Numbered from the stretch's first letter, positions 523-57,531 are shown. The stretch: 64,000 bases of DNA from a virus (IMGVR_UViG_3300047202_000060); one strand, 5' to 3'. The notes: a model not told the origin generated them from the letters alone. Made by a program: numbers and translations.

Positions 523-538
523 TAATCAACTGATTAAA
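523..538. repeat. 16-bp palindrome TTAATCAACTGATTAA
   Basis: perfect inverted repeat TTAATCA/TGATTAA with 2-nt spacer; one of 17 copies. Confidence 0.6.
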
Positions 539-586
539 ATTCCGCTAAAAACGGGGGTCGCGCCACAACTTTACTGTTCGGAAAAC

Positions 587-823
587 TTAAGTGAAATCTA
601 CTTTAACTTTGTTCGGGTTCCAGAAGGGACAAATACAACCACAAAAGAATAAACGCCCCCCGTTTCCTTTAATTGGGTTCACTATGTCAGATATATGCCC
701 TATGCCTTTAAGATGTTCTGGGTCATCTAGGTTAGGAGATGACTTTGGTTCTGTGCATTTAAAGTGTAACTTTCCAATGTTCTGTCTGTTGCCACAGTTG
801 AAACAACCTTTCTCTTGCGTCAT
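587..823 (-). CDS. small Cys-rich protein with KVKVDFT junction tail
   Basis: ends in junction cassette; CxxC pairs; antisense ORF 591..827 judged spurious. Confidence 0.45.
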   Translation of the reverse strand: MTQEKGCFNCGNRQNIGKLHFKCTEPKSSPNLDDPEHLKGIGHISDIVNPIKGNGGRLFFCGCICPFWNPNKVKVDFT

Positions 824-1281
824 GTGAAGAGCACCTTTTCCTTCCTATTTAAATGTCGTTCTGTCCATTCGTCACATTCACGGTCTATTTGCCGAACGTA
901 GAATATTTCTCCCTTCTCTTTCCAATTCAAGTGAATTTCACCTTTTCTTTTGCGTTAGGGAATCTCTGAGCCTTACAGTCATTATGAAGTCCGTTCGGTA
1001 TGTGAAGAGAAATTAAGCAAAGTTTTCGTGTTCCTATGTCGAAGCTGTGAGGACATTCAGCTTTATCAATACAGCTAGGCAATTTTTGAACTTGTGCTTT
1101 CGTGATTATTGTTATGCTTTCAACCCCTCTCTAAATTGTCCGTGTGCGAACGGTTGACCGTGATGCTCTAGGTTAGGCAGACTTGAATAAACACGCCTAA
1201 GTTTGCGGACGTTCAACGGCAAACCCCCGTAACTTTCCGCTTTGCGAGTTTACGCCGAACCTGTGAGAGTTTTCGCATCTT

Positions 1282-1297
1282 TTAATCATCTGATTAA
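1282..1297. repeat. 16-bp palindrome TTAATCATCTGATTAA
   Basis: inverted repeat copy. Confidence 0.55.
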
Positions 1298-1310
1298 TTG
1301 ATACGTCCCC

Positions 1311-1347
1311 GTCCCTTATAAATCTTTGCCACGAAAGACCGTTCTCG
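1311..1347 (-). promoter_or_regulatory. class I element copy overlapping 3' end of ORF 1316..1564
   Basis: gtcccttataaatctttgccacgaaagaccgttctcg; encodes the C-terminal VFRGKDL-stop of that ORF. Confidence 0.35.
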
Positions 1348-1564
1348 AAATACCGTTTTGTATCGTACAACTCACAAGTTTAAGCCCATATTCAGCTTCT
1401 AATTGCCTAGCCCTCTTCATTACGCCGTCCTTATAGGTTTTCACGCCTAGAATGAGCAGACAGTCTTTCATCCATCCCTCATAAACTATTAAGTTTTCCC
1501 CCTCGATTTTAGTCCCGAATCCTATACGCTCAAGTTTGCGCGCCAGCTTTGCCAAATCCGTCAT
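1316..1564 (-). CDS. hypothetical protein
   Basis: 82-aa ORF, start overlaps stop of upstream gene (ATGA). Confidence 0.5.
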   Translation of the reverse strand: MTDLAKLARKLERIGFGTKIEGENLIVYEGWMKDCLLILGVKTYKDGVMKRARQLEAEYGLKLVSCTIQNGISRTVFRGKDL

Positions 1565-2867: not shown

Positions 2868-3356
2868 TCATAGGTTTTCGATTAATTCTTTTGCTTTCTC
2901 TTTGTCTTTCATTCGTGCAAAAAAGTGAATTGTTCTATGGCATTTCCAGCAAAGAGGAACGAAATCCTTTATATGTTTGAAGGTGTAATATGGGTGTTCA
3001 ACGTGTGGTTTGCCGTGTATTTCGTGATATTCAATAGTGTGGGTTCTTCCAAATAAATTGCCCTCTTCGTTACACAAAACGCAAGTTTTTCCCAAAATTT
3101 CTACAACCATAATTCGATATTTTTCCCTTCTACCTTTGAGATATTGAAGGTTTGCTTTTCGGTATTCTGGGTTATTTGCCATTTTTTCAAGTCGGGTTTG
3201 AGTCAATTTCTTATAACGGTCTTTGTGTTTTTGGTAATAGTCTTTTCGGTAGTCTAACATTCTTTGTTTATTCTTTTGGTAATAGTCTGCCGAATATTTC
3301 CTCATATATTTGGGGTCTTTGCGTATTCCTGTTTTCGTCATTTTGATGAACCTCAT
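2868..3356 (-). CDS. HNH endonuclease family A with YYQKHK basic repeats
   Basis: VLCNEEG...YHEIHGKPH...DFVPLCWKCHRTIH; repeat N-terminus RKDYYQKHKDRYKK. Confidence 0.65.
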   Translation of the reverse strand: MRFIKMTKTGIRKDPKYMRKYSADYYQKNKQRMLDYRKDYYQKHKDRYKKLTQTRLEKMANNPEYRKANLQYLKGRREKYRIMVVEILGKTCVLCNEEGNLFGRTHTIEYHEIHGKPHVEHPYYTFKHIKDFVPLCWKCHRTIHFFARMKDKEKAKELIENL

Positions 3357-3393: not shown

Positions 3394-4086
3394 TTATTCG
3401 TCTTTGTCCTTTGCTTTTGCCTTTGCCTTTTGGGCTTTTTGTTCAGTTAAGAATGCTTCCACGCTTCCATTGAGTTCATCGAGCATATTTACGGTGTCTA
3501 GCATTTCGTTATAGCGTTCGTGTCCCTTCATGCTCTCAATATGACTGTTGCAAATTTCTACTGCCTTTCTACATCTCCACAACGTACTCTGAGCCATGCG
3601 TTTGTCTTTCACTCCGTCCTCTGCCATCTTTACGTGTTCCATTATGAAGTTTAGAATGAACTCTGCTTTCTTGTCCTTATAGTTTTCGAAGCCCTCTGGG
3701 GTCGTGAAAATCGGTATGATACGAATACGAGAATCAATATCATCAAACCCTTTTGTTTTCGCTTGAGCCTTTATCCCCTCAATTTCGGCAACTGCAATAT
3801 CCAACTTATCTCCATTCAAAAACCAAGATGACTCAAGATGTTTTACCGCATCAAGTTTGAACTTTAAGGTAAAGGCAATTTTGTTTCTGATAACCCTAGC
3901 CAACTTATTGAACCGTTCGTTTGCATCTCTTTGTTCTTTTGTCAACTTTTTCTTTTGTGCGTCTGTGAGATAGTGCTCACTATAAAGGTCATATTCCAGA
4001 CTCCAAATCGTGGAGCCATAAAGACCTAATTGTTCGAGTGCTTTCTCATCGATTATTAGCTTGTTCGACTTTTTCTGTTCAGACAT
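3394..4086 (-). CDS. hypothetical coiled-coil protein with KAKAKAKDKDE tail
   Basis: 230-aa ORF with normal composition. Confidence 0.5.
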   Translation of the reverse strand: MSEQKKSNKLIIDEKALEQLGLYGSTIWSLEYDLYSEHYLTDAQKKKLTKEQRDANERFNKLARVIRNKIAFTLKFKLDAVKHLESSWFLNGDKLDIAVAEIEGIKAQAKTKGFDDIDSRIRIIPIFTTPEGFENYKDKKAEFILNFIMEHVKMAEDGVKDKRMAQSTLWRCRKAVEICNSHIESMKGHERYNEMLDTVNMLDELNGSVEAFLTEQKAQKAKAKAKDKDE

Positions 4087-4099
4087 ATTTGTTCACTAA

Positions 4100-4115
4100 T
4101 TAATCATATGATTAA
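4100..4115. repeat. 16-bp palindrome TTAATCATATGATTAA
   Basis: inverted repeat copy flanking class I element. Confidence 0.55.
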
Positions 4116-4119: not shown

Positions 4120-4152
4120 CTTATAAAGTTTTCCTAAGAAACTCTATGCTCA
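4120..4152 (-). promoter_or_regulatory. class I element copy overlapping 3' end of HNH gene
   Basis: cttataaagttttcctaagaaactctatgctca; encodes NEHRVS-stop of HNH 4134..4814. Confidence 0.4.
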
Positions 4153-4814
4153 TTTAGTTCATTAATCATTTGATTAACTAATTTGAATATTTCTTCCTTC
4201 TTCTTATTGCCCAAGTTCAAAAGATAATGAGTAACATTATGACATCTACAGCATAGAGGTATAAAATCTTCTAAATGCCTCATAATGTAAGCGTAAGTGT
4301 AAGTATGAAGTTTTCCATGAATCTCATGGTAATGAATTATTCTTTTTGAATTACCACAAATCGAACAAATTTTTCCCAATTTTATTTGAACAATATTTTT
4401 CTGTTCTGAATGGTGTTCTCTTTGATATTTTTCTATTCTTTCTTTGTTTTTTCGATTATATTCTTTCTCGTATTCTTTATGTTCCAGATGCCACATTCTA
4501 CTTCTTTCCTTAGCCTTTTCTCTATGTACTTCTCGATATTGTTTAGCCCATTTATTTATTTGGTTTTTGTGTTGTTCATAATATTCTTTTTTTTGTTGTT
4601 TTACTTCTGGGAGTTGTCGGCGTTCTTTCTCACGGTTAAGAATTTTCTCACGATTTTTCTCATAATATCCTTTGCTTCTATTTCTTTCTTGTTCCAGATG
4701 TTCAAGACGATATTGTTTGGCGTATTCTTTATGTTGTTCCTTATGGGTTTGATTATATTGTTTACCATATTGTTTCATATATTGTTTTTCTTGCGTTGAA
4801 TCCTTATACGGCAT
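4134..4814 (-). CDS. HNH endonuclease family A with long K/Y/H-rich repeat N-terminus
   Basis: ICSICG...YHEIHGKLH...DFIPLCCRCHNVTH; start moved from 4844 to the Met 34 nt downstream of TTATAAA box at about 4849. Confidence 0.6.
   Translation of the reverse strand: MPYKDSTQEKQYMKQYGKQYNQTHKEQHKEYAKQYRLEHLEQERNRSKGYYEKNREKILNREKERRQLPEVKQQKKEYYEQHKNQINKWAKQYREVHREKAKERSRMWHLEHKEYEKEYNRKNKERIEKYQREHHSEQKNIVQIKLGKICSICGNSKRIIHYHEIHGKLHTYTYAYIMRHLEDFIPLCCRCHNVTHYLLNLGNKKKEEIFKLVNQMINELNEHRVS
4162..4177. repeat. 16-bp palindrome TTAATCATTTGATTAA (inside HNH 3' coding region, encodes NQMIN)
   Basis: inverted repeat copy. Confidence 0.5.
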
Positions 4815-4846
4815 TCGACTCACCACTAATATAGAACAACACACTC

Positions 4847-5142: not shown

Positions 5143-5436
5143 TTAATCGGAACCGCAAAGAACACAAGATTTTCCTAGTAACTCGATAACTTTTTGTCTA
5201 AGTTTCAGTCTTGCGTCCTTCCTTCTTTTTACTAATTCTGGGTTCTTCCTTCGCTCTCGTTCTTGTTCTCTTTTGTATTTTTGCATTTTAGGCAAATCTT
5301 TGTAATAAAGTCTATGATGATTTTTGTTTGTTAATTCTTTTCGACATTTTTCAGAACAAACCCTTTGTGTGTTCGATATTTTAGGAAAAATCCTATTACA
5401 TCTCGGACAATAACCATATCCATAATGGTTTCTCAA
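5143..5436 (-). pseudogene. truncated HNH-family paralog: Zn ribbon plus basic repeat retained, nuclease core missing
   Basis: same N-terminal architecture as 31404..31958 and 41223..41687, stops right after LLGKSCVLCGSD where the HNH core would begin. Confidence 0.4.
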
Positions 5437-6701: not shown

Positions 6702-6737
6702 TTTCTAATCACCCGTTGATAAATAAGAATACAAACG

Positions 6738-6763
6738 AGTATTTAAAGGTTATGGTTTGAACC
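6738..6763 (-). promoter_or_regulatory. class II promoter element (aaccataaccTTTAAATA in gene orientation)
   Basis: gagtatttaaaggttatggtttgaacc; GGGTGAT SD 6 nt before ATG at 6701. Confidence 0.4.
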
Positions 6764-6923: not shown

Positions 6924-7820
6924 TTAGCTCTCTTCCTTCTGCTTTTTCAGCTTCTCGACATCTATCTCGTCCGAATCTTCGAAGAAGCTACGGAACAGGT
7001 TCCTTTCCTCTTTTGCGGTGTAAAGTGAGCTTGCAATGTCTATGATGTCCTCTTCCGACATCTTTGCTTTATAGAGTTTGCCGTAGTTTATTAGGTTTCC
7101 TGTCGTGAGGGGCGTTCGAAGTTTTCCGTTCTCGTATTCGGTTCGGGTCTTTTTGCCAATTTCAACGAACTTCGATGCAAATTCGTATGCTTTGCCATCA
7201 TTGCCAGCGAATTTCTTTATCAAATCACGCTCTTTCTGGGGGCTAAGGTAGTCAATTATCAAACCTTCGAAGCGTCTAATCGTTGCAATGTTTTCGATGA
7301 ACGTCCCAGAGTAGCCCGATTTTTCGCTAGGGTTATACGAGATGACTAGGTAGTGCTGTGCTGTGCGCTGAAATTCCTTCTTGTATTCTGGAATCCAGAC
7401 CGAACCCCTAAAGTCCGCTAGGCTTTCCAGAAGTGAAATTATCGATGGTTCCGCATAGTTGAACCCGTCTATGTAAAGTAAACCCTTCGGCGAATTGAGC
7501 CATTGAATTATTATTCCTTCTCTTGTTTCCGTGTTGCCTTTGCTCAATGTGTCACACGCCAGCAAATCCCATTTTGTCACATCTCTCGTGAGCACAATTT
7601 CGAAAAGTGGAACCTCTAACAACTCTGCCAATTTATGAACCAAAGTTGTTTTGCCCGTCCCCGTTTCGCCGACTAATCGCAAGTTTCCGACAACCTCAAG
7701 AATCGCCCGTGACTTTTCAATGTAGTTATGTTCGTCCACGAACTCTATGCCTTTGACGTAGATGCCAGCACCTTCAAGTGCTGATTCAACCTTCGCATGG
7801 ATTTTTTCAAATTCAGACAT
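6924..7820 (-). CDS. MoxR/CobS-like AAA+ ATPase
   Basis: Walker A GETGTGKTT; AAA_5-like layout; paired with the vWA gene upstream. Confidence 0.7.
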   Translation of the reverse strand: MSEFEKIHAKVESALEGAGIYVKGIEFVDEHNYIEKSRAILEVVGNLRLVGETGTGKTTLVHKLAELLEVPLFEIVLTRDVTKWDLLACDTLSKGNTETREGIIIQWLNSPKGLLYIDGFNYAEPSIISLLESLADFRGSVWIPEYKKEFQRTAQHYLVISYNPSEKSGYSGTFIENIATIRRFEGLIIDYLSPQKERDLIKKFAGNDGKAYEFASKFVEIGKKTRTEYENGKLRTPLTTGNLINYGKLYKAKMSEEDIIDIASSLYTAKEERNLFRSFFEDSDEIDVEKLKKQKEES

Positions 7821-7893: not shown

Positions 7894-7909
7894 TTAATCA
7901 TCTGATTAA
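7894..7909. repeat. 16-bp palindrome TTAATCATCTGATTAA
   Basis: inverted repeat copy. Confidence 0.55.
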
Positions 7910-7958: not shown

Positions 7959-8393
7959 TTAGATAGTCTTTTGTTTTACAAATTCTTGAATTTCGTTTAA
8001 TTCCATTTTACAAATCTGATGAAGAAAGTGAAAACCTTTATGGCAAATATGGCAGAGAGGAATAAAATCCTCTTTGTGGTTTGCATAATACGATAAGCTA
8101 ATCGGGTGTTTTTTCCAATGAATTTCGTGAAGCATTAACCCCTGTTTCGAATCACATGATAAACACTTATCTGGAAATAATGCTTTTACCTTTTCACGAA
8201 ATAGCTTTTTCCTTTTGGATTCTTTTTCACGATTTTTTGAATAGTATGTTTGGTTTCTAAGTTTTCCAGCTTCGTGATTTTCTACGTAGTTGTTTCTGTG
8301 TCTTGCGTTTATTTTTTCTTTGTTTCGTGCGTGATAATCTCTTTGGGCTTTCCTTTGTTTTTCTTTGTCTTTATATGGCAATTCCATCACCAC
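7959..8393 (-). CDS. HNH endonuclease family A
   Basis: CLSCDS...LHEIHWKKH...DFIPLCHICHKGFH; basic N-terminus. Confidence 0.65.
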   Translation of the reverse strand: MVMELPYKDKEKQRKAQRDYHARNKEKINARHRNNYVENHEAGKLRNQTYYSKNREKESKRKKLFREKVKALFPDKCLSCDSKQGLMLHEIHWKKHPISLSYYANHKEDFIPLCHICHKGFHFLHQICKMELNEIQEFVKQKTI

Positions 8394-8417
8394 AACCTTT
8401 ATATAATACTATTCTAC

Positions 8418-8439
8418 TATTTAAAGGTTATGGTTTGGC
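8418..8439 (-). promoter_or_regulatory. class II promoter element
   Basis: ctatttaaaggttatggtttggc, 25 nt upstream of ATG 8393. Confidence 0.4.
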
Positions 8440-10205
8440 TATTTCTGGGTTTCCACGTTAAGGTAAACTTGAAGGAAGGCTTTTGGTAACTCAGAAATTT
8501 CCTTAATACGGGTTCGTGAAACCTTTAAGTTACGAACTTTGTTTGCAAAAGTTTCCACATTATCAGCATCACAGAATCCAATAAAGCATACTTCAATTCC
8601 ACTACGGGTGTACTGTTCGATTAAGTTCTCTGCTTTTTGCTCGTCATCACCGTTAAAACAGAAATCGCTTGCTATTACAAGAATCTTTCTGCGTTCGCCC
8701 TTTATGGAATTGAACATTTTTAAATGTGCCTCAAGCAAAACGGAAACTTCAGTTCCCCCAGCATTTACGGAAATCGCCCCGATTCTTGCTCGTGTGTTTT
8801 CGAATGTTTCGAAATGTGACTTTACTCGTTGACTATCAGCACCGAACGCGGAAATTGAGAAACCATAATCATCAACGTAATGACCGAAAACTTCGTTAAG
8901 AATTGTCGTTATTTTCTGTGCTTGGTTTCTATCAACTGAACCCGAATAATCGAATAGAAAAGCTATAGCTACTTGTTCTTTTTCGAACTTCGTGGTCGTT
9001 CGCAAATACACATTACGAACGGTTCCGCGAAAAGAGTTAGTGTAGATTCGTGGAACTATCGGTGACATCATTTTGCCCCTTTTCTGGAATATCTCCCGTG
9101 ACACTCGTGGTTTCATTCTAGTTTTCAAAAGGTTAAGTAATTCTGTAATTTCTGGTTTACACTCATCGAGTAACTTTGAGTATGCTTCAAAGTCAGGCTC
9201 AGGACTAGGTATTTCGATTCCCGTGCCTTCGCCAGCACCCGAACCTTTCTGTAAATCTTCAAGATGTTTCTTTTTGTCCTCTTCTTGTTGTTCTTCCTTC
9301 TCTGCTTGTTCCAGAAGTTGTTTCAATTTATCCGAAATTTTGCCCTTTATGTTTCCCCCTCTACGAGAAACAACGTATTCTTTTGTGGTATAGTCAGCTT
9401 TAAGGTGTTTAGCTACTAAATCATAAATTGCTTGGCATGAACGAATGATGTCCAACTTAACGCGCTGATATTTGGTTCCCTCTAGGATTTTCAGGGCTTC
9501 CTCTGTGTCCTTTCGAGTATCGGGGCTAAGTTTGTCCCACAATTCTGTGCATTTAGCTTCATATAGACCTTCATTGCACAAAATTGCAACCATGTAAACC
9601 CCTTCTTGTTGTCCAGCTTGAATTGGCATGGTTATATTTGTGTTTTCTCCCAAGCTTTCACCTTTCGGGAGAATTGAAGATGTCCGTATCTGAGGCTTTT
9701 CTATCGTGTTGTCAATCATATCCTTCAATATCAAGTTCGCCAAAAGAAGCCTTTTTCCGACATCGAACCTATATCTGAGGATAATAAAGTGATTAATGCG
9801 TTTATCTTCGACCAAATTGCAAACTTCATGAGCCAGCTTATAGTAACCACGCTGGCGTTTGATTTTCGTTGTCCAATTGTTGAAAAACTCCCAATTTGGC
9901 TTTGTAAGGATTAAATGACCGCATTCGTGAGCCATATCTCCGTCCAGAATCTTTCTGAACAATCTCGGAGAAGTTTTCACGAAATCGGGATAACTTTGCA
10001 AACTTAGAGAAATTTCAAAATTTTCCATGTTAAAAGCAGAAGTTGGTTGTTCTGGAATATACTTGACACGAATCCGTTTGTCCTTTGTTATGGCAATGGC
10101 TAAGTTTCGCATCTCATCGAGAATTTTTGAGAATGCCCCATTATCTTTCTGTGGTTTCTTCTTTTGGTAACTCATTCTCTCACGCCACAATAAGAAGCTA
10201 ACCAC
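8439..10205 (-). CDS. vWA-domain protein (CobT/NorD-like) with N-terminal HExxH motif
   Basis: MIDAS motif DYSGSVD in AIAFLFDYSGSVD; MAHECGHLIL HExxH; 588 aa; follows the AAA+ gene. Confidence 0.65.
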   Translation of the reverse strand: MVSFLLWRERMSYQKKKPQKDNGAFSKILDEMRNLAIAITKDKRIRVKYIPEQPTSAFNMENFEISLSLQSYPDFVKTSPRLFRKILDGDMAHECGHLILTKPNWEFFNNWTTKIKRQRGYYKLAHEVCNLVEDKRINHFIILRYRFDVGKRLLLANLILKDMIDNTIEKPQIRTSSILPKGESLGENTNITMPIQAGQQEGVYMVAILCNEGLYEAKCTELWDKLSPDTRKDTEEALKILEGTKYQRVKLDIIRSCQAIYDLVAKHLKADYTTKEYVVSRRGGNIKGKISDKLKQLLEQAEKEEQQEEDKKKHLEDLQKGSGAGEGTGIEIPSPEPDFEAYSKLLDECKPEITELLNLLKTRMKPRVSREIFQKRGKMMSPIVPRIYTNSFRGTVRNVYLRTTTKFEKEQVAIAFLFDYSGSVDRNQAQKITTILNEVFGHYVDDYGFSISAFGADSQRVKSHFETFENTRARIGAISVNAGGTEVSVLLEAHLKMFNSIKGERRKILVIASDFCFNGDDEQKAENLIEQYTRSGIEVCFIGFCDADNVETFANKVRNLKVSRTRIKEISELPKAFLQVYLNVETQK

Positions 10206-10206
10206 A

Positions 10207-10240
10207 CTTATAAACCTTTCTTAAGAAACAACATACTCAT
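10207..10240 (-). promoter_or_regulatory. class I element copy
   Basis: cttataaacctttcttaagaaacaacatactcat upstream of vWA gene start 10205. Confidence 0.4.
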
Positions 10241-10245
10241 TCTGC

Positions 10246-10261
10246 TTAATCAACTGATTAA
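10246..10261. repeat. 16-bp palindrome TTAATCAACTGATTAA
   Basis: inverted repeat copy. Confidence 0.6.
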
Positions 10262-10312
10262 AAAAACGCCAAAAACGATGGATGTTAACGGGCGTGAAGG
10301 AGCGTGAAGTCA

Positions 10313-10328
10313 TTAATCAACTGATTAA
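10313..10328. repeat. 16-bp palindrome TTAATCAACTGATTAA
   Basis: inverted repeat copy. Confidence 0.6.
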
Positions 10329-10693
10329 ATGAATTAGCCTCATATCTGGTTCCGTTTGGCAAAAGCATCCATTGTGAAAGACGTGCTGGAAAAGTCAGTA
10401 CGTTAATTCTAGGGAAAAACTTATAAGCAACCACGCCTATATATTCACAAAGCTTCACAAGAGGTTTGAAAATGTTTCCGTTTGACACAATAAGTTTCAT
10501 TTTGGCTCTCATCGTACTTGCAAAGGTCGCTAGAACTTTCCGTCACCCTATAGGTTTACCACCAAAGTCAATTAATTATGAGCCAGAAGATTAAACTAAA
10601 AATACCCCATACATACGCCCATTTTTTTTCTAAATTTTGATTTTGGACAGCATGATGTTCTCTTTCCTTTCCCCTAGCCTTTTCCCTGATTAT

Positions 10694-10709
10694 TTAATCA
10701 CTTGATTAA
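10694..10709. repeat. 16-bp palindrome TTAATCACTTGATTAA
   Basis: inverted repeat copy. Confidence 0.55.
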
Positions 10710-10803
10710 AAAAGCTTCGACTTCAGACTTCAGTCCCCATCGCATTCGCCCTAGCATCAAGAACGTTTTTTTCCCTAGCCTATTTACCTGTTAAATGGAA
10801 GTG

Positions 10804-11235: not shown

Positions 11236-11263
11236 TTTGAATCAATATATGTAGAGAAAACTA

Positions 11264-11287
11264 ACTTATAAATCTTTCGGTTTGTAG
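11264..11287 (-). promoter_or_regulatory. TATA/BRE-like promoter
   Basis: aacttataaatctttcggtttgtagg, box 30 nt upstream of ATG 11235. Confidence 0.4.
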
Positions 11288-11298
11288 GAGTAGAGGGG

Positions 11299-11490
11299 TC
11301 AAGTAAAGAGAACAACTTCTGGAATCATACGCTCATATTCTGCAATTACAGTATCGACTTTTTTCTTCTTTGCCAAACAAGCCTTAGCCATAGGAAAGTT
11401 TTTTTGTTGTTTTTGCAGTTCGGCAGACCTAGTTAATCTGTTGCTTAATGCTCGAAGTCTATGAAGAGTCTTTCTTGAGAACTTATTCAC
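11299..11490 (-). CDS. hypothetical protein, GTG start, VVLFT tail
   Basis: junction cassette at 11487 gives GTG start; track ORF 11299..11538 trimmed. Confidence 0.45.
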   Translation of the reverse strand: MNKFSRKTLHRLRALSNRLTRSAELQKQQKNFPMAKACLAKKKKVDTVIAEYERMIPEVVLFT

Positions 11491-12043: not shown

Positions 12044-12198
12044 TCATATATATCATAATTATGACTAAGAGAATTACGTATTTCCTTTTTTCCACAATTA
12101 CGACAAATACAATATCCTTTTTGTTCCAAATATGAAGGTATCTTGCATTTTCCCTCGCAATGAAATGGTTTACGGCAAGTGCAACATATTCTTCTCAT
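12001..12198 (-). CDS. Cys-rich small protein, EKVSFT tail
   Basis: CCTCRKPFHCEGKC...CICRNCG. Confidence 0.5.
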   Translation of the reverse strand: MRRICCTCRKPFHCEGKCKIPSYLEQKGYCICRNCGKKEIRNSLSHNYDIYDCQKGFQKEKVSFT

Positions 12199-12566
12199 GT
12201 GAATTCTACTTTCTCCTTAGAGCACAAAGTTTGAAGTTGTTTATATCCTTCACAGATTTCTAGCGTCATGTCAATAATTTCGAATCCTGTCGGGTTTCCT
12301 AACGGGTCTTCCACTTGAATACCTCGCCCATAACAAGTACCCGAAGCTATTATGTGTTCGTCTTTCCAGATTTCATAATCGTATTGATAACTGTCGTTTT
12401 CTTTGTCAATATCTCCGAATCCCCCAATTGGAAGAATAATATCTAACTTTTTATCCCAGAGTTTTTCCCGTTTAAGAATGAACATGATGTTTCCCCTTAT
12501 AGTCTTGTCTGAAATTTCTTCGAATATATCTTCAAGTTCAGCTTCAAACTCAGGTTCTTTAGTCAC
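12195..12566 (-). CDS. hypothetical protein, paralog of 13462..13818, GTG start, EKVEFT tail
   Basis: EFEAELEDIFE...FILKREKLWD...YDYEIWK shared with 13462..13818. Confidence 0.55.
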   Translation of the reverse strand: MTKEPEFEAELEDIFEEISDKTIRGNIMFILKREKLWDKKLDIILPIGGFGDIDKENDSYQYDYEIWKDEHIIASGTCYGRGIQVEDPLGNPTGFEIIDMTLEICEGYKQLQTLCSKEKVEFT

Positions 12567-13307: not shown

Positions 13308-13465
13308 GTGAACAACACCTTCTCTTTTCGTTCGGGTTCTTTTCTACACAGAATCTTATAGAGAAAATCGGGGTTGTTAGCACCACATCCGCGTTCGTGA
13401 CAAGTTTTATAGCAGAAGTTTGCACACCCAGAGCAATGGCATTTTTCACAGTCAGGATTATTCAA
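13304..13465 (-). CDS. unannotated 53-aa Cys-rich protein with TTG start and EKVLFT tail
   Basis: LNNPDCEKCHCSGCANFCYKTCHERGCG...KEKVLFT; TTGA overlap at 13462, ATGA overlap at 13304. Confidence 0.45.
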   Translation of the reverse strand: MNNPDCEKCHCSGCANFCYKTCHERGCGANNPDFLYKILCRKEPERKEKVLFT

Positions 13466-13818
13466 GTAAATTCTACCTTCTCCTTACAGCAAAGTTCTAT
13501 AAGTTCTTTATATCCCGTCATCACTTCCAGAGTCATATCTTGAATTTCTGAAATGTTAAAATCTGTTATCACAGTCCCGTAACAAGTTCCAGCGCAAACA
13601 CATTTATTGCCTTTCCAAATTTCATAGTCAGACTGATAAGCGTCATTCGTGACATCTATATCTTTGAATGCCCCAATAGGAAAGATTATTTCAAATCGAC
13701 TGTCCCAGAGATGTTCACGTTTCAAAATAAATATGATATTTTTTTCTACTGAAACGTCTGAATATCTCTCGAAAATATCCGAAAGTTCTGCCTCAAACTC
13801 TGCCTCTTCAGGTATCAT
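13462..13818 (-). CDS. hypothetical protein, paralog of 12195..12566, EKVEFT tail
   Basis: EFEAELSDIFE...FILKREHLWD...SDYEIWK. Confidence 0.55.
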   Translation of the reverse strand: MIPEEAEFEAELSDIFERYSDVSVEKNIIFILKREHLWDSRFEIIFPIGAFKDIDVTNDAYQSDYEIWKGNKCVCAGTCYGTVITDFNISEIQDMTLEVMTGYKELIELCCKEKVEFT

Positions 13819-16242: not shown

Positions 16243-16515
16243 TTATTTGTCCCTCTTTGCTTTTCCGCTTAAGTATTCTTCTTTCGTGGAAGTGAGATAA
16301 GACTCAAGTGTGTGGATAACCGTAACCGTTTTAACGACTCTCTGGTTACTTTCGAGATATTTTATCTTTTCAAGAACAGCTTTTCGCAACTCTTTTGGAT
16401 TTTTCCCGTAAGCATAAGTAGAAAATTCGTAGTCACTTCCCCCGTCTGCTTTTGGAATTAAGAAACGTATTTTTGCTTGCCACTTCTCATAAGTTTCTGT
16501 AATCATTTCAACCAT
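16243..16515 (-). CDS. hypothetical protein, first gene after class I element
   Basis: ATG 33 nt downstream of TTTATAA box. Confidence 0.5.
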   Translation of the reverse strand: MVEMITETYEKWQAKIRFLIPKADGGSDYEFSTYAYGKNPKELRKAVLEKIKYLESNQRVVKTVTVIHTLESYLTSTKEEYLSGKAKRDK

Positions 16516-16584: not shown

Positions 16585-16600
16585 TTAAACAGTTGATTAA
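16585..16600. repeat. imperfect 16-bp palindrome TTAAACAGTTGATTAA
   Basis: one mismatch in left arm. Confidence 0.4.
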
Positions 16601-17122: not shown

Positions 17123-17194
17123 ATTGTTTTTCCCTCTCTATAATTATCTGGTATTCTTTCGCAGTTTTGAAATAGTAGTTGCTTATCTCTTCGC

Positions 17195-22328: not shown

Positions 22329-22344
22329 TTAATCAACTGATTAA
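22329..22344. repeat. 16-bp palindrome TTAATCAACTGATTAA
   Basis: inverted repeat copy. Confidence 0.6.
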
Positions 22345-23990: not shown

Positions 23991-24006
23991 TTAATCACCA
24001 GATTAA
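23991..24006. repeat. imperfect palindrome TTAATCACCAGATTAA
   Basis: degenerate inverted repeat. Confidence 0.3.
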
Positions 24007-26610: not shown

Positions 26611-26626
26611 TTAATCACTTGATTAA
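26611..26626. repeat. 16-bp palindrome TTAATCACTTGATTAA
   Basis: inverted repeat copy at 3' end of KaiC-like gene. Confidence 0.55.
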
Positions 26627-32797: not shown

Positions 32798-32813
32798 TTA
32801 ATCAGTTGATTAA
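32798..32813. repeat. 16-bp palindrome TTAATCAGTTGATTAA
   Basis: inverted repeat copy. Confidence 0.55.
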
Positions 32814-33240: not shown

Positions 33241-33690
33241 TGGACTTTTAACGATGGCAGGAACGCCCGCCTTTCAATCTGCCCCGAAATTTACTCTGAT
33301 TGTCAAGTTCGATTCAGTTCGGTAGTCAGATGGCTCTCACCCAACCCCTCGACAGGGTAGCTTGGATTTTTAATCAGGTGATTAATAGTTGAACTTTCAG
33401 TTGTAAAAAAAGTGTAACTAAAAAGGTCACGCAAAAAAACCCCAGAAAAAAAACCTTGAGGCTCACTCGACTTTTACATAAAGCGCACATAGGCGAAAAA
33501 TGACATAAAATTTGTTTTTGGTAGCCAGTTTTTTTTCGGCGGCTTTTGGCACGGGTTCCGAGCCGTTTTCGTTTCTCCGTTTCAGCGGTCTCTCAAACCA
33601 AATTACTAAGATTCTCGGAAAAGAAAATAATGGAAAACGTCTTTTTTGCCAGCGGTTTTTAGCCTCTAGGGGAAGCTCTAGGTAGGGGAG
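33241..33690. other. 450-nt ORF-free region with GC-rich islands and poly-A/T runs; candidate origin or non-coding RNA locus
   Basis: no ORF of 60 aa or more on either strand; strand switch; GC islands gccagttttttttcggcggcttttggcacggg and ttgccagcggtttttagcc. Confidence 0.3.
33370..33385. repeat. 16-bp palindrome TTAATCAGGTGATTAA
   Basis: inverted repeat copy. Confidence 0.55.
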
Positions 33691-38181: not shown

Positions 38182-38197
38182 TTAATCATCTGATTAA
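38182..38197. repeat. 16-bp palindrome TTAATCATCTGATTAA
   Basis: inverted repeat copy. Confidence 0.55.
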
Positions 38198-38250
38198 AAG
38201 AATTCATGGTTAATGCCTATTTACACCTTTCGCAACCTTAATAAGCAACC

Positions 38251-45516: not shown

Positions 45517-45837
45517 TCATGTAAATTGCACCTTCTCTCTATCATGCATAAACCTGTAATATTCATGAGCAAGCCATACAAACCATCTCATACAAGCTCT
45601 ACAATTGCTACCGCATTTTGTAGTAGGCGGTGCAACGCCATTATACGATTTTGTTTGCCCCATCGTCCCGCCATTCTCGGAGTCCATATCCTTTCTTGGG
45701 TTTAATGAAGACAAGTGGACCATGTGTAAAAGACATTTCTCTAGCTTCCCGCTGTACTCTTGGTATAAATTGAATTTTATCTTGTACACTCCATTCTGTT
45801 TTTTGGTTGGTTTGAATATCTTTCTTGAGAAGACCAT
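45517..45837 (-). CDS. hypothetical Cys-containing protein, EKVQFT tail; N-terminal extent uncertain
   Basis: overlaps 45641..46387 by about 197 nt in another frame; internal Met at about 45663. Confidence 0.4.
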   Translation of the reverse strand: MVFSRKIFKPTKKQNGVYKIKFNLYQEYSGKLEKCLLHMVHLSSLNPRKDMDSENGGTMGQTKSYNGVAPPTTKCGSNCRACMRWFVWLAHEYYRFMHDREKVQFT

Positions 45838-47898: not shown

Positions 47899-47914
47899 TT
47901 AATCAACTGATTAA
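47899..47914. repeat. 16-bp palindrome TTAATCAACTGATTAA
   Basis: inverted repeat copy. Confidence 0.6.
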
Positions 47915-54824: not shown

Positions 54825-54855
54825 TAGACAGTTCTGGTATATAAAGGTTATGGTT

Positions 54856-54877
54856 TTATTTATCCAAAGCTTTGCCC
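54856..54877 (-). promoter_or_regulatory. class II promoter element
   Basis: ggtatataaaggttatggtttt, box 33 nt upstream of 54824. Confidence 0.4.
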
Positions 54878-55192
54878 TTGATGGTCAACATTGCACTTAT
54901 TCTGGTCATCATCATCTTCTTCTTCCTTTTCTTCTTCATCATCTTCATCATTTTCTGGTGTCTCTTCACCAAAAGGATTATAATCAGGTGGCGGTGGTGG
55001 AACTGGTTCATCTATATCTTGTTCAAGTTGACCCATAAAATGAAGAGCACAAAGATAAATTTTTACCATTTCAAATCGTCCATGTAATTCTCGTTTAACA
55101 TAACATTCGAATATACTATCAGATGATTTTCCGCAATACTCACAAATTGGACCAGAAACAACTTGACTTTTAGGTTCTTCGTCTTCCGACAT
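54860..55192 (-). CDS. acidic Zn-ribbon protein with poly-D/E tail
   Basis: CEYCGKS..C..CALH; EDDEEEKEEEDDDD. Confidence 0.45.
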   Translation of the reverse strand: MSEDEEPKSQVVSGPICEYCGKSSDSIFECYVKRELHGRFEMVKIYLCALHFMGQLEQDIDEPVPPPPPDYNPFGEETPENDEDDEEEKEEEDDDDQNKCNVDHQGQSFG

Positions 55193-55221
55193 AATAACAC
55201 CAAGAAGGTTAAAGGTAAAAC

Positions 55222-55246
55222 GAGTATATAAACCTTATGGTTACGG
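55222..55246 (-). promoter_or_regulatory. class II promoter element
   Basis: cgagtatataaaccttatggttacgg, box 32 nt upstream of 55192. Confidence 0.4.
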
Positions 55247-56410
55247 ATGAGGATGAGCCTGTTGTGAGTCTGGCTTATAATTCGATTCTGGTATTGGAAC
55301 ATCATTTAAAGTAAGTTGAGTTTTCGATACTCCAATTTTATTGAATATATCAAGCAATGCATTACATAATTTCTCATCATCAAATAGTTCTAAAACTCTT
55401 TTACGCCCAGCTTCCACCATTTTATGATAGAATTCTTTATCTGTTTTTAATCGTTCGATAAGTTCGATTTGTTTAACATAGTCAATTGGTGTAGTATAAA
55501 GTTCTGGAAATATATCATGTACTGAATCAGATGAACCAACACAGGGTATGCAAGTTATTGCACATTCCATAGCAAATCTCGACCAACCGCCATAACCAAT
55601 ATTATTATCCAGACCTATCGAGTTAGTTCTCCAAAGCAAATCCGCATATGGTTCATATTCTAATCGTTCATACACTATACTATTAACTGGAAGTGGTGTA
55701 TTTCTACGGAAATTTTCTACAAAATGTCTATCAAGAGTACCATTGAAAACTGTTACAGGATAATTTTTAGGTCTTATAACATTTTCAAGAGAAGCAGAAA
55801 TTGATGAACTTTTAGGAGAATGAAGCATCATAGCTATATTATTTCCTTTATGATTTTCGGAATATTTTCGTAAATTGTATCTACAAAGTTGTGGAATAAA
55901 CAATTTAAATACTGGTTTAGTAGTATATTTTTGAAGTTGAAAATTATTAGTTACCACGAGATGTGCATCTGGAATTTCAAGTATGCCTGTATCTTTGAAA
56001 AATTCTTCTGGTCCCTGATTGGGTGGATTTGGCATTATTGATGTATCCCACCACATTCCTTTAGGGTCGAACAACCATAAAAATTCATCATCATATTGGG
56101 CAATCATTTTGGCTTCTGGCTTCATAAATGGTTTTACAAATTGTGGCAAAGTCCACCAACTAATGCCTGATGGTTCATGTCTTGTTGACCGTCTTACTAT
56201 ATAAGCAAAAACTACGTCAGCTTGTTTTAGAGGATTCCAATATGGGTCATTTTTGAAATCGGAGTGAATTTTCTTATACAACGGCGCGGCATTTATCGAT
56301 ATTACTTCTATTCCGAGTTTTGCTTTAAACTTTTCAAGAGCGATATTCCATTGAAAGTAATTATAACTGTCGAAATAAGCTACGATACATAATTTCGTTT
56401 CTTCCACCAC
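55241..56410 (-). CDS. hypothetical protein of glycan module, AHPHP tail
   Basis: 389 aa; no confident family. Confidence 0.45.
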   Translation of the reverse strand: MVEETKLCIVAYFDSYNYFQWNIALEKFKAKLGIEVISINAAPLYKKIHSDFKNDPYWNPLKQADVVFAYIVRRSTRHEPSGISWWTLPQFVKPFMKPEAKMIAQYDDEFLWLFDPKGMWWDTSIMPNPPNQGPEEFFKDTGILEIPDAHLVVTNNFQLQKYTTKPVFKLFIPQLCRYNLRKYSENHKGNNIAMMLHSPKSSSISASLENVIRPKNYPVTVFNGTLDRHFVENFRRNTPLPVNSIVYERLEYEPYADLLWRTNSIGLDNNIGYGGWSRFAMECAITCIPCVGSSDSVHDIFPELYTTPIDYVKQIELIERLKTDKEFYHKMVEAGRKRVLELFDDEKLCNALLDIFNKIGVSKTQLTLNDVPIPESNYKPDSQQAHPHP

Positions 56411-57531
56411 CTTTTAAGATATTTTATAATATTAGAAGTTGCATTTCCATTCCCAAAGATATTTTCAATAGAAAGTATAAAACTTCTAGGCTTGTTCAAT
56501 TCATTTGCTATATCTTTACATTCAATCAACTTGTTTGCACCACATTTAATAGTTTCGACCCATACAGTATTTCGTCTGAGCGTCAAACAGGGAACTTTAA
56601 GAAGAAATGCTTCTCTTTGAATACCGCCAGAATCAGTAAGAATGTACTGTGCCCCAAGCATAAGTTTTATCATATCACCATAGCCAAGCGGTTCACAGGT
56701 ATGAATAAGCGTATTTTTAATCAGTTGATTAATTAGACCATTCTCTTCTAAAGCCTTACGAGTCCGTGGATGTATAGGAAAAATAATAGATGTTTTTGAT
56801 TGCACTAGAATATCAATTATCTCTTTAAGACGAACTAAATTATCAATATTTTCGACTCTGTGAAGTGTGACTACATTATAATTTCTTGTTTTATGCAAAT
56901 ATTTTGGTAGATTTTGAAGAAGAACATCATATCCGATGTCTCCTGTAAATACGACTTTGCCGAGAATATGTTCTTTCTTTAAGTTATTTATCGAATCTGT
57001 TGTTGGAGCAAAAAGAATTTCGGAACAGTTGTCAATGATTATTCTATTTATTTCTTCTGGAAAATTGTTCATAGAAAGTTCTCTATGAAAGTTTACCTCA
57101 TCATAGGTTTGTTCTCTAAGTCCAGCCTCGATATGTGCAATTGGAATGTTTAGCTTTTTAGCCGCCAACGCCGCTCCTAATGTAGAGTTTGTATCTCCAA
57201 TAACCAGCACTAAATTTGGCTTATATGCAACTAGAGCCTTTTCAGACTCGACCATAATCTTCGTTAGCTGTTCCATAGGAGAACCAGAACCTACACCGAA
57301 GTTCAAATCTGGATGATTGTCTAGTTCTTCCTCGAAAACCCCAGACATCTCATAGTCGTAATGCTGTCCAGTATTCCACACTTGAAGTTCTAACCAATCC
57401 TCTTTTTTAAGTTGATGAATAACTACCGATGAACGAATTAGCTGAGGACGAGTCCCAATAATAAATGCGAGTTTCATTTTATGGATGTGAATATTATTTC
57501 CCATTTCATTGTTCATGTCATACGCCGCCAT
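56380..57531 (-). CDS. wecB: UDP-N-acetylglucosamine 2-epimerase (non-hydrolysing, WecB-like)
   Basis: GTRPQLIR, NTGQHYDYEMS and DSGGIQREAF match WecB hallmarks; 383 aa. Confidence 0.8.
   Translation of the reverse strand: MAAYDMNNEMGNNIHIHKMKLAFIIGTRPQLIRSSVVIHQLKKEDWLELQVWNTGQHYDYEMSGVFEEELDNHPDLNFGVGSGSPMEQLTKIMVESEKALVAYKPNLVLVIGDTNSTLGAALAAKKLNIPIAHIEAGLREQTYDEVNFHRELSMNNFPEEINRIIIDNCSEILFAPTTDSINNLKKEHILGKVVFTGDIGYDVLLQNLPKYLHKTRNYNVVTLHRVENIDNLVRLKEIIDILVQSKTSIIFPIHPRTRKALEENGLINQLIKNTLIHTCEPLGYGDMIKLMLGAQYILTDSGGIQREAFLLKVPCLTLRRNTVWVETIKCGANKLIECKDIANELNKPRSFILSIENIFGNGNATSNIIKYLKRWWKKRNYVS
56717..56732. repeat. palindrome TTAATCAGTTGATTAA inside epimerase CDS (encodes NQLI)
   Basis: only copy deep inside a long gene. 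Confidence 0.3.

What the first reader, a model, noticed from the sequence alone, without database searches (positions are those of the whole stretch)
523..56732. Seventeen copies of the 16-bp palindrome TTAATCANNTGATTAA
Perfect 7-bp arms with a 2-nt spacer sit at 523, 1282, 4100, 4162, 7894, 10246, 10313, 10694, 22329, 26611, 32798, 33370, 38182, 47899 and 56717. Imperfect copies are at 16585 and 23991. All but two lie between transcription units, usually 10-40 nt from a class I element on either side. Three are clustered in the 600-nt ORF-poor region 10206..10803. The spacing and dyad symmetry suggest the binding site of a dimeric regulator, of which many small Zn-ribbon or HTH candidates are encoded here. 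A transcript-end hairpin is also possible.
Basis: seen in the sequence. Interest (0 to 1): 0.65.

Follow-up and report, generated by a model that had tools for sequence, protein, structure and literature searches.

The report
Repeated operator palindrome in archaeal virus
A 16-base palindrome repeated 17 times between the genes of this uncultivated archaeal virus is most likely the docking site of a paired DNA-binding regulator, and related viruses and integrated elements of Bathyarchaeia archaea carry the same site.

Summary
There are 15 perfect TTAATCANNTGATTAA sites, against 0.00 expected, plus two one-mismatch copies. Twelve to fifteen of the 17 lie outside real genes, and 15 of 17 lie in the first 38 kb.

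The window looks like part of a large archaeal virus. All genes are on the minus strand, promoters are of the BRE/TATA type, and sigma-70 promoters and hairpin terminators are not enriched.

The palindrome is not a hairpin signal. Its arms are invariant in sequence, single-arm mismatches are not compensated, the stem is weak (-2.7 to -4.7 kcal/mol), and a T-run rarely follows it.

The same 16-mer recurs in relatives that share only 44-67% protein identity, sometimes at orthologous positions. It also occurs in small integrase-carrying elements inside Bathyarchaeia genomes. It takes two fixed geometries: abutting BRE/TATA, or just after TATA over the expected start site. Pairs spaced 42-43 bp occur in at least five unrelated contexts. 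One relative uses a symmetric variant, TTAAGTA-AT-TACTTAA, at the same positions.

Best reading: a multi-copy operator for a dimeric DNA-binding protein that controls transcription. The protein was not identified and could be viral or host-encoded. It is a new member of a known kind, of moderate interest.

The parts
522..537 (.). Perfect palindrome TTAATCAACTGATTAA. On the coding (minus) strand it follows a T5 run and GGAATT, and lies 26 nt upstream of the TATA of a long-type promoter (about 501-486).
1282..1297 (.). Perfect palindrome 17 nt downstream of a long-type BRE/TATA (about 1329-1315), so over the expected transcription start. An ATG follows 3 nt later.
4100..4115 (.). Perfect palindrome 4-5 nt downstream of the TATA (4128-4121) of the 230-aa gene and 13 nt before its ATG. 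This is the operator over the start site.
4162..4177 (.). Perfect palindrome 34 nt upstream of the same TATA. Together with 4100 it brackets the promoter, 62 bp apart. It lies in the last codons of HNH-like ORF 4134-4844.
7894..7909 (.). Perfect palindrome after a T5 run, 5 nt upstream of the long-type promoter (BRE/TATA about 7869-7855) of the MoxR-like AAA gene 6924-7820. Relative L233 has a one-mismatch site at the orthologous position.
10246..10261 (.). Perfect palindrome after T5 and T7 runs, 31 nt upstream of the TATA of the VWA-domain gene 8439-10205. L237 and L233 keep a site at the orthologous position.
10313..10328 (.). Perfect palindrome in the ORF-poor region. It is separated from 10246 by two TTCACG direct repeats. 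Its position is conserved in L203, L209, L217, L223 and L231.
10694..10709 (.). Perfect palindrome at the upstream edge of the ORF-poor region, merged with a T6 run. Its position is conserved in the same five relatives.
11433..11448 (.). Two-mismatch copy TTAATCTGTTGCTTAA in intergenic gap 11236-11486. Possibly a decayed site; weak evidence.
16585..16600 (.). One-mismatch copy, 36 nt upstream of the TATA of gene 16243-16515. The mismatch breaks the pairing (T opposite T).
22329..22344 (.). Perfect palindrome preceded by GGAATT, 79 nt upstream of the TATA (22250) of the SPFH/Band-7 gene 21307-22203.
23991..24006 (.). One-mismatch copy 9 nt upstream of the long-type promoter (about 23962-23948) of the 479-aa InlB-B-repeat gene 22473-23912.
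26611..26626 (.). Perfect palindrome overlapping the stop codon of the KaiC/RecA-like (helicase-like) ATPase gene 26623-27558, 86 nt upstream of the next TATA (26524). Relative L127 has its variant palindrome at the same place.
32798..32813 (.). Perfect palindrome 90 nt upstream of the TATA (32708) of a long-type promoter.
33370..33385 (.). Perfect palindrome in the ORF-poor stretch 33118-33690, just after several T7-T8 runs. No promoter nearby.
38182..38197 (.). Perfect palindrome in the 203-nt gap 38048-38250, about 115 nt upstream of a long-type promoter.
47899..47914 (.). Perfect palindrome 46 nt upstream of the TATA (47852) that heads the gap-free operon 47823 to 45641.
56717..56732 (.). 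Perfect palindrome inside the UDP-GlcNAc 2-epimerase gene (56380-57531), read as L-I-N-Q-L-I-K. Its function here is unknown.
10206..10803 (-). ORF-poor region conserved at the nucleotide level, holding three of the sites. Possibly a control or replication hub. No RNA structure was supported.
3394..4086 (-). Gene for a 230-aa protein that is strongly conserved (49-88% identity). Its promoter is bracketed by two palindromes here and in L233/L179. L237 keeps the site over the start.

Best explanation
TTAATCA-NN-TGATTAA is a multi-copy operator, meaning the DNA recognition site of a sequence-specific, two-fold symmetric (dimeric) DNA-binding protein. Each 7-bp arm is read by one subunit and the central 2 bp are not contacted. 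The sites sit at the boundaries of transcription units of an archaeal virus, where promoters are of the BRE/TATA type. A site lying 1-18 nt after the TATA box covers the transcription start and should block RNA polymerase recruitment, which is repression. This is the case at 4100 and 1282, and most clearly at the promoter of the conserved 230-aa gene, which is bracketed by two sites. A site lying just upstream of the promoter could recruit or stabilise TFB/TBP (activation), help repression by pairing with a downstream site, or stop read-through from the preceding unit. In relatives with short promoters the site abuts the BRE; in this virus it lies upstream of the extended 'class I' element. 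Pairs 42-43 bp apart suggest cooperative binding of two dimers. Shown here: the enrichment, location, geometry, conservation and symmetric variant. Inferred: that a protein binds, that it is a dimer, and the sign of regulation. The protein is unidentified. It may be encoded by the virus outside the window, by the host (probably Bathyarchaeia), or by resident integrated elements.
For: Enrichment is 15 exact sites against 0.00 expected. Twelve of 17 sites lie outside ORFs that cover 90% of the window, p = 3e-9.

Sequence, not pairing, is conserved. All arms are identical within the window, while the central dinucleotide varies (8 different dinucleotides in the window; 14 in 194 sites of relatives).

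The site is conserved across divergence. L126 shares 50% identity in the ATPase and has 20 perfect sites in 21 kb. L233 shares 67% in the 230-aa protein and has 4 perfect plus 10 one-mismatch sites in 20.7 kb. L237 shares 44% in the ATPase and has 5 perfect sites. Orthologous positions are kept upstream of the VWA gene, at the start of the 230-aa gene, and at three places in the ORF-poor region.

Two recurrent geometries appear. In one, the site ends 8 nt before the TATA octamer (L126 three times, L233 19082, and three times for the L127 variant). In the other, the site starts 1-18 nt after TATA (window 4100 and 1282; L233 9983 and 11250; L237 7505, 10271 and 11865).

Pairs with 26-27-nt spacers occur in at least 5 non-homologous contexts.

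L127 lacks the motif but carries TTAAGTA-AT-TACTTAA at the same architectural positions, including the stop codon of the ATPase gene. Both arms changed together.

About 12 of 20 long-type promoters have a site within about 120 bp, against 0 of about 14 short-type promoters (read by eye; Fisher p = 2.4e-4).

Position-dependent repression or activation by a palindrome-binding archaeal regulator is established for TrmBL1 and its TGM motif (PMC4706686).

An identical 7-2-7 sequence pair sits upstream of a TetR-family gene across Vibrionaceae. This shows that the sequence type works as an operator for helix-turn-helix dimers.
Against: No binding protein was found. Pfam and PHROG scans of about 161 window ORFs gave no HTH, wHTH or RHH family.

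The RHH protein of the small integrated elements has no homologue in the large-virus loci held.

Distances to the promoter in the window itself are loose, from 26 to about 115 nt upstream. Four sites have no promoter nearby and one lies inside a gene.

The promoters are predicted from sequence only. No transcript data were available.
Confidence: 0.62

Rival explanations
1. The palindrome is a site for a genome-maintenance protein (replication initiator, partition or centromere-binding protein, or chromatin organiser). It clusters in non-coding hubs, and the dispersed copies affect transcription only secondarily. Known analogues, from my own knowledge, are DnaA boxes, parS/ParB, the dispersed centromeres of phage N15, and EBNA1 or E2 sites.
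For: The site is 16 bp and dyad-symmetric like parS. Three sites are conserved in the ORF-poor region 10206-10803, together with TTCACG direct repeats. L126 has a 1.6-kb non-coding stretch (19.1-20.7 kb) with 8 sites and other direct repeats, at the point where gene orientation flips. Several sites have no promoter nearby.
Against: Most sites have a fixed relation to BRE/TATA: an 8-nt gap, or a position over the start site. No ParA, ParB or initiator family was detected in the window. The site is also used in about 10-kb integrated elements, at the head of their operons. The two roles are not mutually exclusive.
Confidence: 0.15
2. The sites are roadblocks or insulators. A bound protein stops RNA polymerase that reads through from the upstream unit, as the 'stoperators' of mycobacteriophage L5 do, rather than controlling initiation.
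For: Nearly every long intergenic gap of the window has a site. A run of 5 or more T lies within 40 nt upstream in 20 of 58 sites, against 8 of 58 downstream. Long-type promoters in short gaps without a terminator lack the site. L5-type repressors bind more than 20 sites in promoters and short intergenic spaces (PMC9283540).
Against: Stoperators are asymmetric and orientation-dependent, whereas this site is symmetric. The precise 8-nt and over-the-start geometries point to control of initiation. This is a sub-mode of protein binding, not a true alternative to it.
Confidence: 0.1
3. The palindrome acts as a hairpin in RNA or single-stranded DNA, as a transcript-end or processing signal.
For: It is a palindrome. 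In L126, 5 of 18 sites are followed by TCTTTT(T). Several sites lie just after T-runs.
Against: The stem is A/U-rich, effectively 6 bp with a 4-nt loop, at -2.7 to -4.7 kcal/mol and z-scores of -0.9 to -2.4. In the window only 1 of 17 sites has 5 or more T downstream. Of 12 single-arm mismatches, 9 break the pair and only 3 give G-U, with no compensation within a genome. The arms are invariant in sequence. Hairpin terminators are not enriched: 15 found against 13.2 +/- 3.6 expected. From established knowledge, archaeal termination needs only an oligo-T tract. Many sites lie between a terminator and a TATA box, so they may not be transcribed at all.
Confidence: 0.06
4. The sites are targets or insertion hot-spots of the multi-copy HNH homing-endonuclease family of these viruses.
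For: The window has five or six HNH-like paralogues. Several HNH genes end within 100 nt of a site: window 4134-4844 and 7959-8393, and L233 2636-3061 and 12760-13191.
Against: Most sites have no HNH gene nearby, and most HNH genes have no site nearby. A virus would not keep 17 or more cleavable sites. The association is explained by free-standing endonuclease genes inserting into intergenic DNA. It does not account for the promoter geometry.
Confidence: 0.03

Closest known systems
TrmBL1/Tgr and the Thermococcales glycolytic motif TATCAC-N5-GTGATA (PMC4706686)
   Same: An archaeal palindromic operator with short conserved arms and a free spacer. It is present at many promoters. Binding downstream of TATA represses and binding upstream of BRE/TATA activates. 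The palindrome here shows the same two placements.
   Different: The sequence and spacer differ (2 nt against 5 nt). TGM is a host chromosomal sugar regulon, whereas this site lies in viral and integrated-element genomes. The TGM binder is known and a TrmB family member; here the binder is unknown, and no TrmB domain was found in the window.
Stoperators and operators of mycobacteriophage L5 and Cluster A phages (PMC9283540)
   Same: One short site is repeated more than 20 times over a viral genome, in promoters and short intergenic spaces. A single protein thereby silences many units.
   Different: The L5 site is an asymmetric 13-mer bound by a monomer and works in one orientation only. It belongs to a bacterial host with sigma-type promoters. 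The site here is a symmetric 16-mer.
Paired sites upstream of a TetR-family gene in Vibrionaceae (seen here)
   Same: The consensus is literally the same, TTAATCANNTGATTAA, in two copies about 63-67 bp apart, next to a gene for a helix-turn-helix dimer. It shows what kind of protein reads such a sequence.
   Different: It is a single bacterial chromosomal locus, unrelated by descent. No TetR domain was detected in the window.
Papillomavirus E2 sites (ACCGN4CGGT) and EBNA1 sites (from my own knowledge)
   Same: These are viral palindromes with an uncontacted spacer. One dimeric protein uses them for position-dependent promoter control and also at the replication origin, where they cluster.
   Different: They belong to eukaryotic viruses with different protein folds. 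An origin role is not shown here.
parS/ParB and the dispersed centromere repeats of phage N15 (from my own knowledge)
   Same: These are 16-bp palindromes in several dispersed copies. The N15 sites also influence nearby promoters.
   Different: No partition genes were detected here. The sites here are tied to BRE/TATA geometry.

Membership tests
Palindromic operator of a dimeric transcription regulator (archaeal type, works like TrmBL1/TGM) | A dyad-symmetric sequence far more frequent than chance and confined to non-coding DNA | tested here: met
   15 exact sites against 0.00 expected. 12 of 17 lie outside ORFs covering 90% of the window, p = 3e-9.
Palindromic operator of a dimeric transcription regulator (archaeal type, works like TrmBL1/TGM) | The base sequence of the arms is conserved, not only their complementarity, and the spacer is free | tested here: met
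   The arms are identical in all copies and in relatives at 44-67% protein identity. The central dinucleotide varies.
Palindromic operator of a dimeric transcription regulator (archaeal type, works like TrmBL1/TGM) | Defined placement relative to BRE/TATA, upstream or over the start site | tested here: met
   Two recurrent placements were seen: an 8-nt gap before TATA, and 1-18 nt after TATA. In the window itself the upstream distances are looser, 26-115 nt. The promoters are predicted, not mapped.
Palindromic operator of a dimeric transcription regulator (archaeal type, works like TrmBL1/TGM) | A cognate DNA-binding protein exists | tested here: inconclusive
   No HTH, wHTH or RHH family was found in about 161 ORFs. 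The RHH of the integrated elements is absent from the large-virus loci. Only 64 kb of a roughly 140-kb genome was visible (contig length), and the host proteome could not be examined.
Palindromic operator of a dimeric transcription regulator (archaeal type, works like TrmBL1/TGM) | Binding changes transcription | not testable with these tools
   This needs in vitro transcription or transcriptomics.
Hairpin terminator or RNA stem-loop | A stable stem-loop | tested here: not met
   -2.7 to -4.7 kcal/mol. 4 to 37 of 200 shuffles fold at least as well.
Hairpin terminator or RNA stem-loop | A U-tract directly after the stem | tested here: not met
   5 or more T downstream in 1 of 17 window sites and 8 of 58 sites overall. 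Terminator-like sites are not enriched.
Hairpin terminator or RNA stem-loop | Pairing kept by compensatory or wobble changes | tested here: not met
   9 of 12 single mismatches break the pair. The L127 variant changes both arms, but every copy in that genome shares the new sequence.
L5-type stoperator | Many copies in short intergenic spaces across a viral genome | tested here: met
L5-type stoperator | An asymmetric site whose orientation follows transcription | tested here: not met
   The site is symmetric. Only a weak purine bias appears at the first central base on the coding strand (15 of 17).
parS/centromere | A partition ATPase and centromere-binding protein encoded nearby | tested here: not met
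   No ParA, ParB or SegAB family appeared in the Pfam scans of the window.
parS/centromere | Clustering near the origin | tested here: inconclusive
   Clusters lie in non-coding hubs (window 10206-10803; L126 19.1-20.7 kb), but the origin is unknown. The cumulative GC skew of the window is monotonic.
CRISPR array, MITE or tandem repeat | Regular spacing, or longer repeated units around the palindrome | tested here: not met
   Spacing ranges from 62 bp to 9.7 kb, and the flanks are unrelated apart from A/T-rich bases.

The most novel reading that the evidence does not exclude
The 16-mer is one word of a shared '7-2-7' operator code used by unrelated mobile elements of Bathyarchaeia. Those elements are 90-150-kb viruses, roughly 10-kb integrase-plus-RHH elements, and other islands. 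Under this reading, the site is read either by a host master regulator that all these elements have evolved to listen to, or by a repressor of resident elements that cross-controls incoming viruses (cross-immunity). Sister words are seen: TTAAGTA-AT-TACTTAA in one virus, and ACGCTAC-CN-GTAGCGT in some integrated elements. These would be specificity switches of the same protein family.
Probability: 0.3. Interest if true: 0.7.

Novelty: new member of a known kind. Interest (0 to 1): 0.5.

Why it matters
Bathyarchaeia are abundant in sediments and peat but are essentially uncultivated, and nothing is known about how their viruses time gene expression. This motif has clear promoter geometry. It recurs in more than 30 large viral contigs and in integrated elements inside Bathyarchaeia genomes. 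That provides a concrete, testable handle: a 16-mer bait for pulling out the regulator, a marker for recognising this virus group and its host link in metagenomes, and a natural specificity variant for studying how protein and operator co-evolve. If the binder is host-encoded, or belongs to resident elements, it would reveal regulatory cross-talk between unrelated archaeal mobile elements.

Tried and rejected
- No near-identical DNA was found in the phage collection. There are no tRNAs and no Rfam family.
It was replaced by a two-site pattern.
- The protein-based locus search with the VWA protein found nothing.
- The 248-aa and 141-aa proteins shared with L126 and L127 have no recognisable DNA-binding features.
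- A profile of the RHH protein of the integrated elements was searched against all large-virus ORFs held, with no hit. In the big database this RHH family is found on Bathyarchaeia contigs, with the TTAATCA site (L240) or without it (L239, L241), so it is not a clean match to the motif.
- An 85-codon ORF among the L126 site cluster is probably not a gene.
- RNAalifold on the conserved ORF-poor segment gave no covariation, only trivial pairing between the two palindromes.
- An automated promoter-class regex failed. The class counts are therefore manual.
- Whether the host uses the site: only about 10 kb of true Bathyarchaeia chromosome was in hand, with 0 sites. That is too little to decide.

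Full report
OBSERVATION. The pattern TTAATCANNTGATTAA occurs 15 times exactly, against 0.00 expected in 100 dinucleotide-preserving shuffles. The first copy starts at 522, not 523. The two imperfect copies at 16585 and 23991 each have one mismatch. Two further two-mismatch hits exist. 11433 is intergenic and may be a decayed site; 9781 is coding and probably chance. Nearly all half-sites in the window belong to the palindromes. A greedy minus-strand ORF set covers 90% of the window, yet 12 of 17 sites lie outside it (p = 3e-9). Three of the five 'inside' sites fall in doubtful tiny ORFs within ORF-poor DNA. That leaves 4162 and 56717 as the only truly genic sites. Fifteen of the 17 sites lie in the first 38 kb.

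WHAT THE WINDOW IS. All credible genes are on the minus strand, G+C is 36%, and there are no tRNAs. Nothing similar exists in the phage collection. Most ORFs are orphans. The recognisable ones include a KaiC/RecA-like helicase-type ATPase, a MoxR-VWA pair, an RNA ligase, PAPS reductase, SPFH, glycosyltransferases, Kelch repeats and five or six HNH endonuclease paralogues.

Upstream of the genes, on the minus strand, lie two kinds of archaeal-looking BRE/TATA promoters. The short type is CCATAACCTTTATATA or CCTTTAAATA. Each lies 30-45 nt before a start codon that is preceded by GGTGA-like Shine-Dalgarno sequences. Sigma-70-type promoters (57 found, 54.4 +/- 7.9 expected) and hairpin terminators (15 found, 13.2 +/- 3.6 expected) are not enriched. 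The identical sequence is found only in metagenome assemblies. I infer that this is part of a large virus of an archaeon, with a source contig of about 140 kb.

RELATIVES CARRY THE SAME SITE. The ATPase has metagenomic relatives.
- L126 comes from a 96-kb contig with 50% identity. It holds 20 perfect sites in 21 kb, 17 of them the full palindrome TTAATCAATTGATTAA.
- L233 comes from a 147.6-kb contig with 67% identity in the 230-aa protein. It has 4 perfect and 10 one-mismatch sites in 20.7 kb.
- L237 has 44% identity and 5 perfect sites in 12 kb.

A two-site pattern (two palindromes 25-55 nt apart) was then scanned in three collections. It found a 112-kb IMG/VR contig and 56 metagenome loci from lake sediment, peat and wetlands. 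About 31 of those share genes with the window. In species genomes it found four Bathyarchaeia MAGs, one unclassified archaeon, and a conserved Vibrionaceae locus.

The Bathyarchaeia hits are small integrated elements with a tyrosine integrase, an RHH protein and Zn-finger proteins, about 10 kb long in L192. They lie in chromosomes next to archaeal ribosomal-protein, Spt4 and Rpo7 genes. They share almost no genes with the large viruses. Apart from an isolated small-ORF hit, the one shared family is a P-loop ATPase. Even so, they carry the same palindrome in the control regions at the head of their operons. This links the large viruses to Bathyarchaeia hosts by inference.

ANATOMY AND GEOMETRY. 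On the coding strand, sites fall in three situations.

(a) Just upstream of a promoter. In relatives with short promoters, the site ends exactly 8 nt before the TATA octamer, abutting the BRE. This occurs three times in L126 and once in L233. In the window the long promoter element lies in between, so the gap to TATA is 26-46 nt, and for four sites 79-115 nt.

(b) One to 18 nt after the TATA box, over the expected start. This is seen at window 4100 and 1282, L233 9983 and 11250, and L237 7505, 10271 and 11865.

(c) Directly after oligo-T runs at the end of the preceding unit. A run of 5 or more T lies upstream in 20 of 58 sites, against 8 of 58 downstream.

The promoter of a strongly conserved 230-aa gene (3394-4086) is bracketed by sites 4162 and 4100. 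The same module is present in the identical overlapping loci L179/L189/L229/L233. L237 keeps the site over the start, and L199 has the module at a different gene. Sites upstream of the VWA gene are likewise kept in L233 and L237. All three sites of the ORF-poor region 10206-10803 are kept in five relatives, while flanking bases drift.

Pairs with 26-27-nt spacers, 42-43 bp from centre to centre and about four helical turns, occur in at least five non-homologous contexts. By eye, about 12 of 20 long-type promoters have a site within about 120 bp, against none of about 14 short-type promoters (Fisher p = 2.4e-4). The long-type promoters without a site lie in short gaps that have no terminator.

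DNA SITE OR HAIRPIN? The predicted hairpin is weak, at -2.7 to -4.7 kcal/mol. Only 1 of 17 window sites is followed by a T-run. Of 12 single-arm mismatches, 9 destroy the pair and none is compensated. The arms are invariant in sequence within and between genomes, while the central 2 nt are free. In L233 the mismatches concentrate at arm positions 5 and 7 and their mirror positions, giving a core of TTAAnCn-NN-nGnTTAA. That is how a degenerate protein site behaves.

Relative L127 lacks the motif altogether. Instead it carries TTAAGTA-AT-TACTTAA, in perfect and degenerate copies, after T-runs, 8 nt before TATA boxes, and on the stop codon of the ATPase gene, which is the orthologous place to window site 26611. 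Both arms changed together and every copy in that genome follows. This is what is expected when a symmetric dimer changes specificity.

WHO BINDS? This was not resolved. No HTH, winged-helix or RHH family was detected in about 161 window ORFs. The 230-aa protein gives a confident model (pLDDT 88) of an alpha/beta domain plus long helices, with only generic structural neighbours. The RHH protein of the integrated elements has no homologue in the large-virus loci. Its family occurs both with the site (L240) and without it (L239, L241).

Some integrated elements carry a second palindrome with the same 7-2-7 layout, ACGCTAC-CN-GTAGCGT, interleaved with the TTAATCA sites. So at least two such regulators act there. 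Unrelated elements of one host group share the site, which makes a host-encoded binder, or cross-talk between elements, a live possibility. The roughly 10 kb of genuine host DNA in hand has no site, but that is far too little to decide.

MECHANISM. I commit to a multi-copy operator for a symmetric dimeric DNA-binding protein. It would repress where it covers the start site, and activate, co-repress or act as a roadblock where it lies upstream at unit boundaries. This follows the position rule shown experimentally for TrmBL1. Confidence is 0.62.

The rivals are as follows. A replication, partition or organiser site gets 0.15, because of the clusters in non-coding hubs such as L126 19.1-20.7 kb; this could coexist with the main reading. 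A pure roadblock role like the L5 stoperators gets 0.10. An RNA hairpin gets 0.06. An HNH endonuclease target gets 0.03.

COMPARISON AND NOVELTY. It works like known palindromic operators: TrmBL1/TGM in archaea, multi-copy repressor sites in temperate phages, and E2 or EBNA1 sites in eukaryotic viruses. The literal sequence also occurs as a conserved pair upstream of a TetR-family gene in Vibrionaceae. A full-text search for the 16-mer found no paper. The published survey of Bathyarchaeia viruses describes no 90-150-kb viruses, and I did not check it for this motif. It is a new member of a known kind, in an uncultivated archaeal virus group. Interest is moderate at 0.5, and would be higher if the shared-code or host-regulator reading proves true.

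Noticed in passing
window, minus strand; e.g. 23962-23948, 22256-22242, 16555-16541, 10221-10207, 7869-7855, 4134-4120 (long type); 55193-55240, 54825-54859, 8394-8438, 6702-6749 (short type): There are two classes of archaeal-type BRE/TATA promoters. The long one has a conserved upstream extension (ATGAGCATGnnGTTTCT). The short one has CCATAACC or CCGAAAG before the TATA. Only the long class is associated with the palindrome. The function of the extension is unknown.
   Followed up: partly
window 35056-35250, 20673-20897, 12195-12566, 13462-13818; gaps 45521-45640, 36854-36906, 36523-36616; also L203, L217, L223, L228, L231: Several unrelated small-protein families end in the same tail, (K)EKVxFT. 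At DNA level this is a conserved gene-junction cassette of about 20 nt, GAGAAGGTnnAnTTTAC(C/A)T(A/G). It is probably a Shine-Dalgarno plus stop/start coupling element shared by many gene boundaries.
   Followed up: no
L127 2030, 8039, 8222, 8344, 10912, 15836, 15906: This relative lacks the TTAATCA palindrome. It uses TTAAGTA-AT-TACTTAA at the same architectural positions: after T-runs, 8 nt before TATA, and on the ATPase stop codon.
   Followed up: partly
L240 4182, 4257, 5478; L239 4803, 4868; L193 6643: A second 7-2-7 palindrome, ACGCTAC-CN-GTAGCGT, occurs in the control regions of some integrated Bathyarchaeia elements. In L240 it is interleaved with TTAATCA sites.
   Followed up: partly
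window 10206-10803 (and L203, L209, L217, L223, L231): This ORF-poor region is conserved at the nucleotide level. It has an almost invariant block, CAGCACnnCTTTCACAATGGnnGCTTTTGCCAAACG, and two TTCACG direct repeats between two palindromes. RNAalifold gave no covariation. It may be a control or replication hub.
   Followed up: partly
L126 19100-20700: A 1.6-kb non-coding, A+T-rich stretch lies where gene orientation flips. It has 8 palindrome copies and other direct repeats (TTTAACTTTCYATGCAACCA twice). It is a candidate origin or master control region.
   Followed up: no
window 2868-3356, 4134-4844, 5143-5436, 7959-8393, 24583-25029, 41223-41687, and 138-473 (+): A multi-copy family of HNH endonuclease-like genes has basic YYxKNK-rich N-termini. 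Several end within 100 nt of a palindrome. 138-473 is the only plus-strand gene in the window.
   Followed up: partly
window 3394-4086 (-): This 230-aa protein is far more conserved than its neighbours (49-88% identity in 44 homologues). The AF2 model is confident, but no informative structural neighbour was found. Its promoter is bracketed by two palindromes.
   Followed up: yes
L163 7098-7176 (Aliivibrio fischeri ES114 chromosome I) and about 30 other Vibrionaceae loci: Two copies of the same 16-mer consensus, 63-67 bp apart, lie between leuA and a TetR-family regulator gene. This is presumably that regulator's operator.
   Followed up: partly
window 26590-26500, 17123-17194, 17429-17503: A repeated segment encoding ...EEISxYYFKTxKxWQTIIE... 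occurs three times at the 5' side of small genes. One copy starts 2 nt after palindrome 26611.
   Followed up: no
window 33118-33690: A second ORF-poor stretch has several T7-T8 runs followed by palindrome 33370 and G+C-rich segments. No Rfam match.
   Followed up: no
window 56717-56732: A perfect palindrome lies inside the UDP-GlcNAc 2-epimerase gene, in the only stop-free frame (LINQLIK). It is too unlikely to be chance, and its role is unknown.
   Followed up: no
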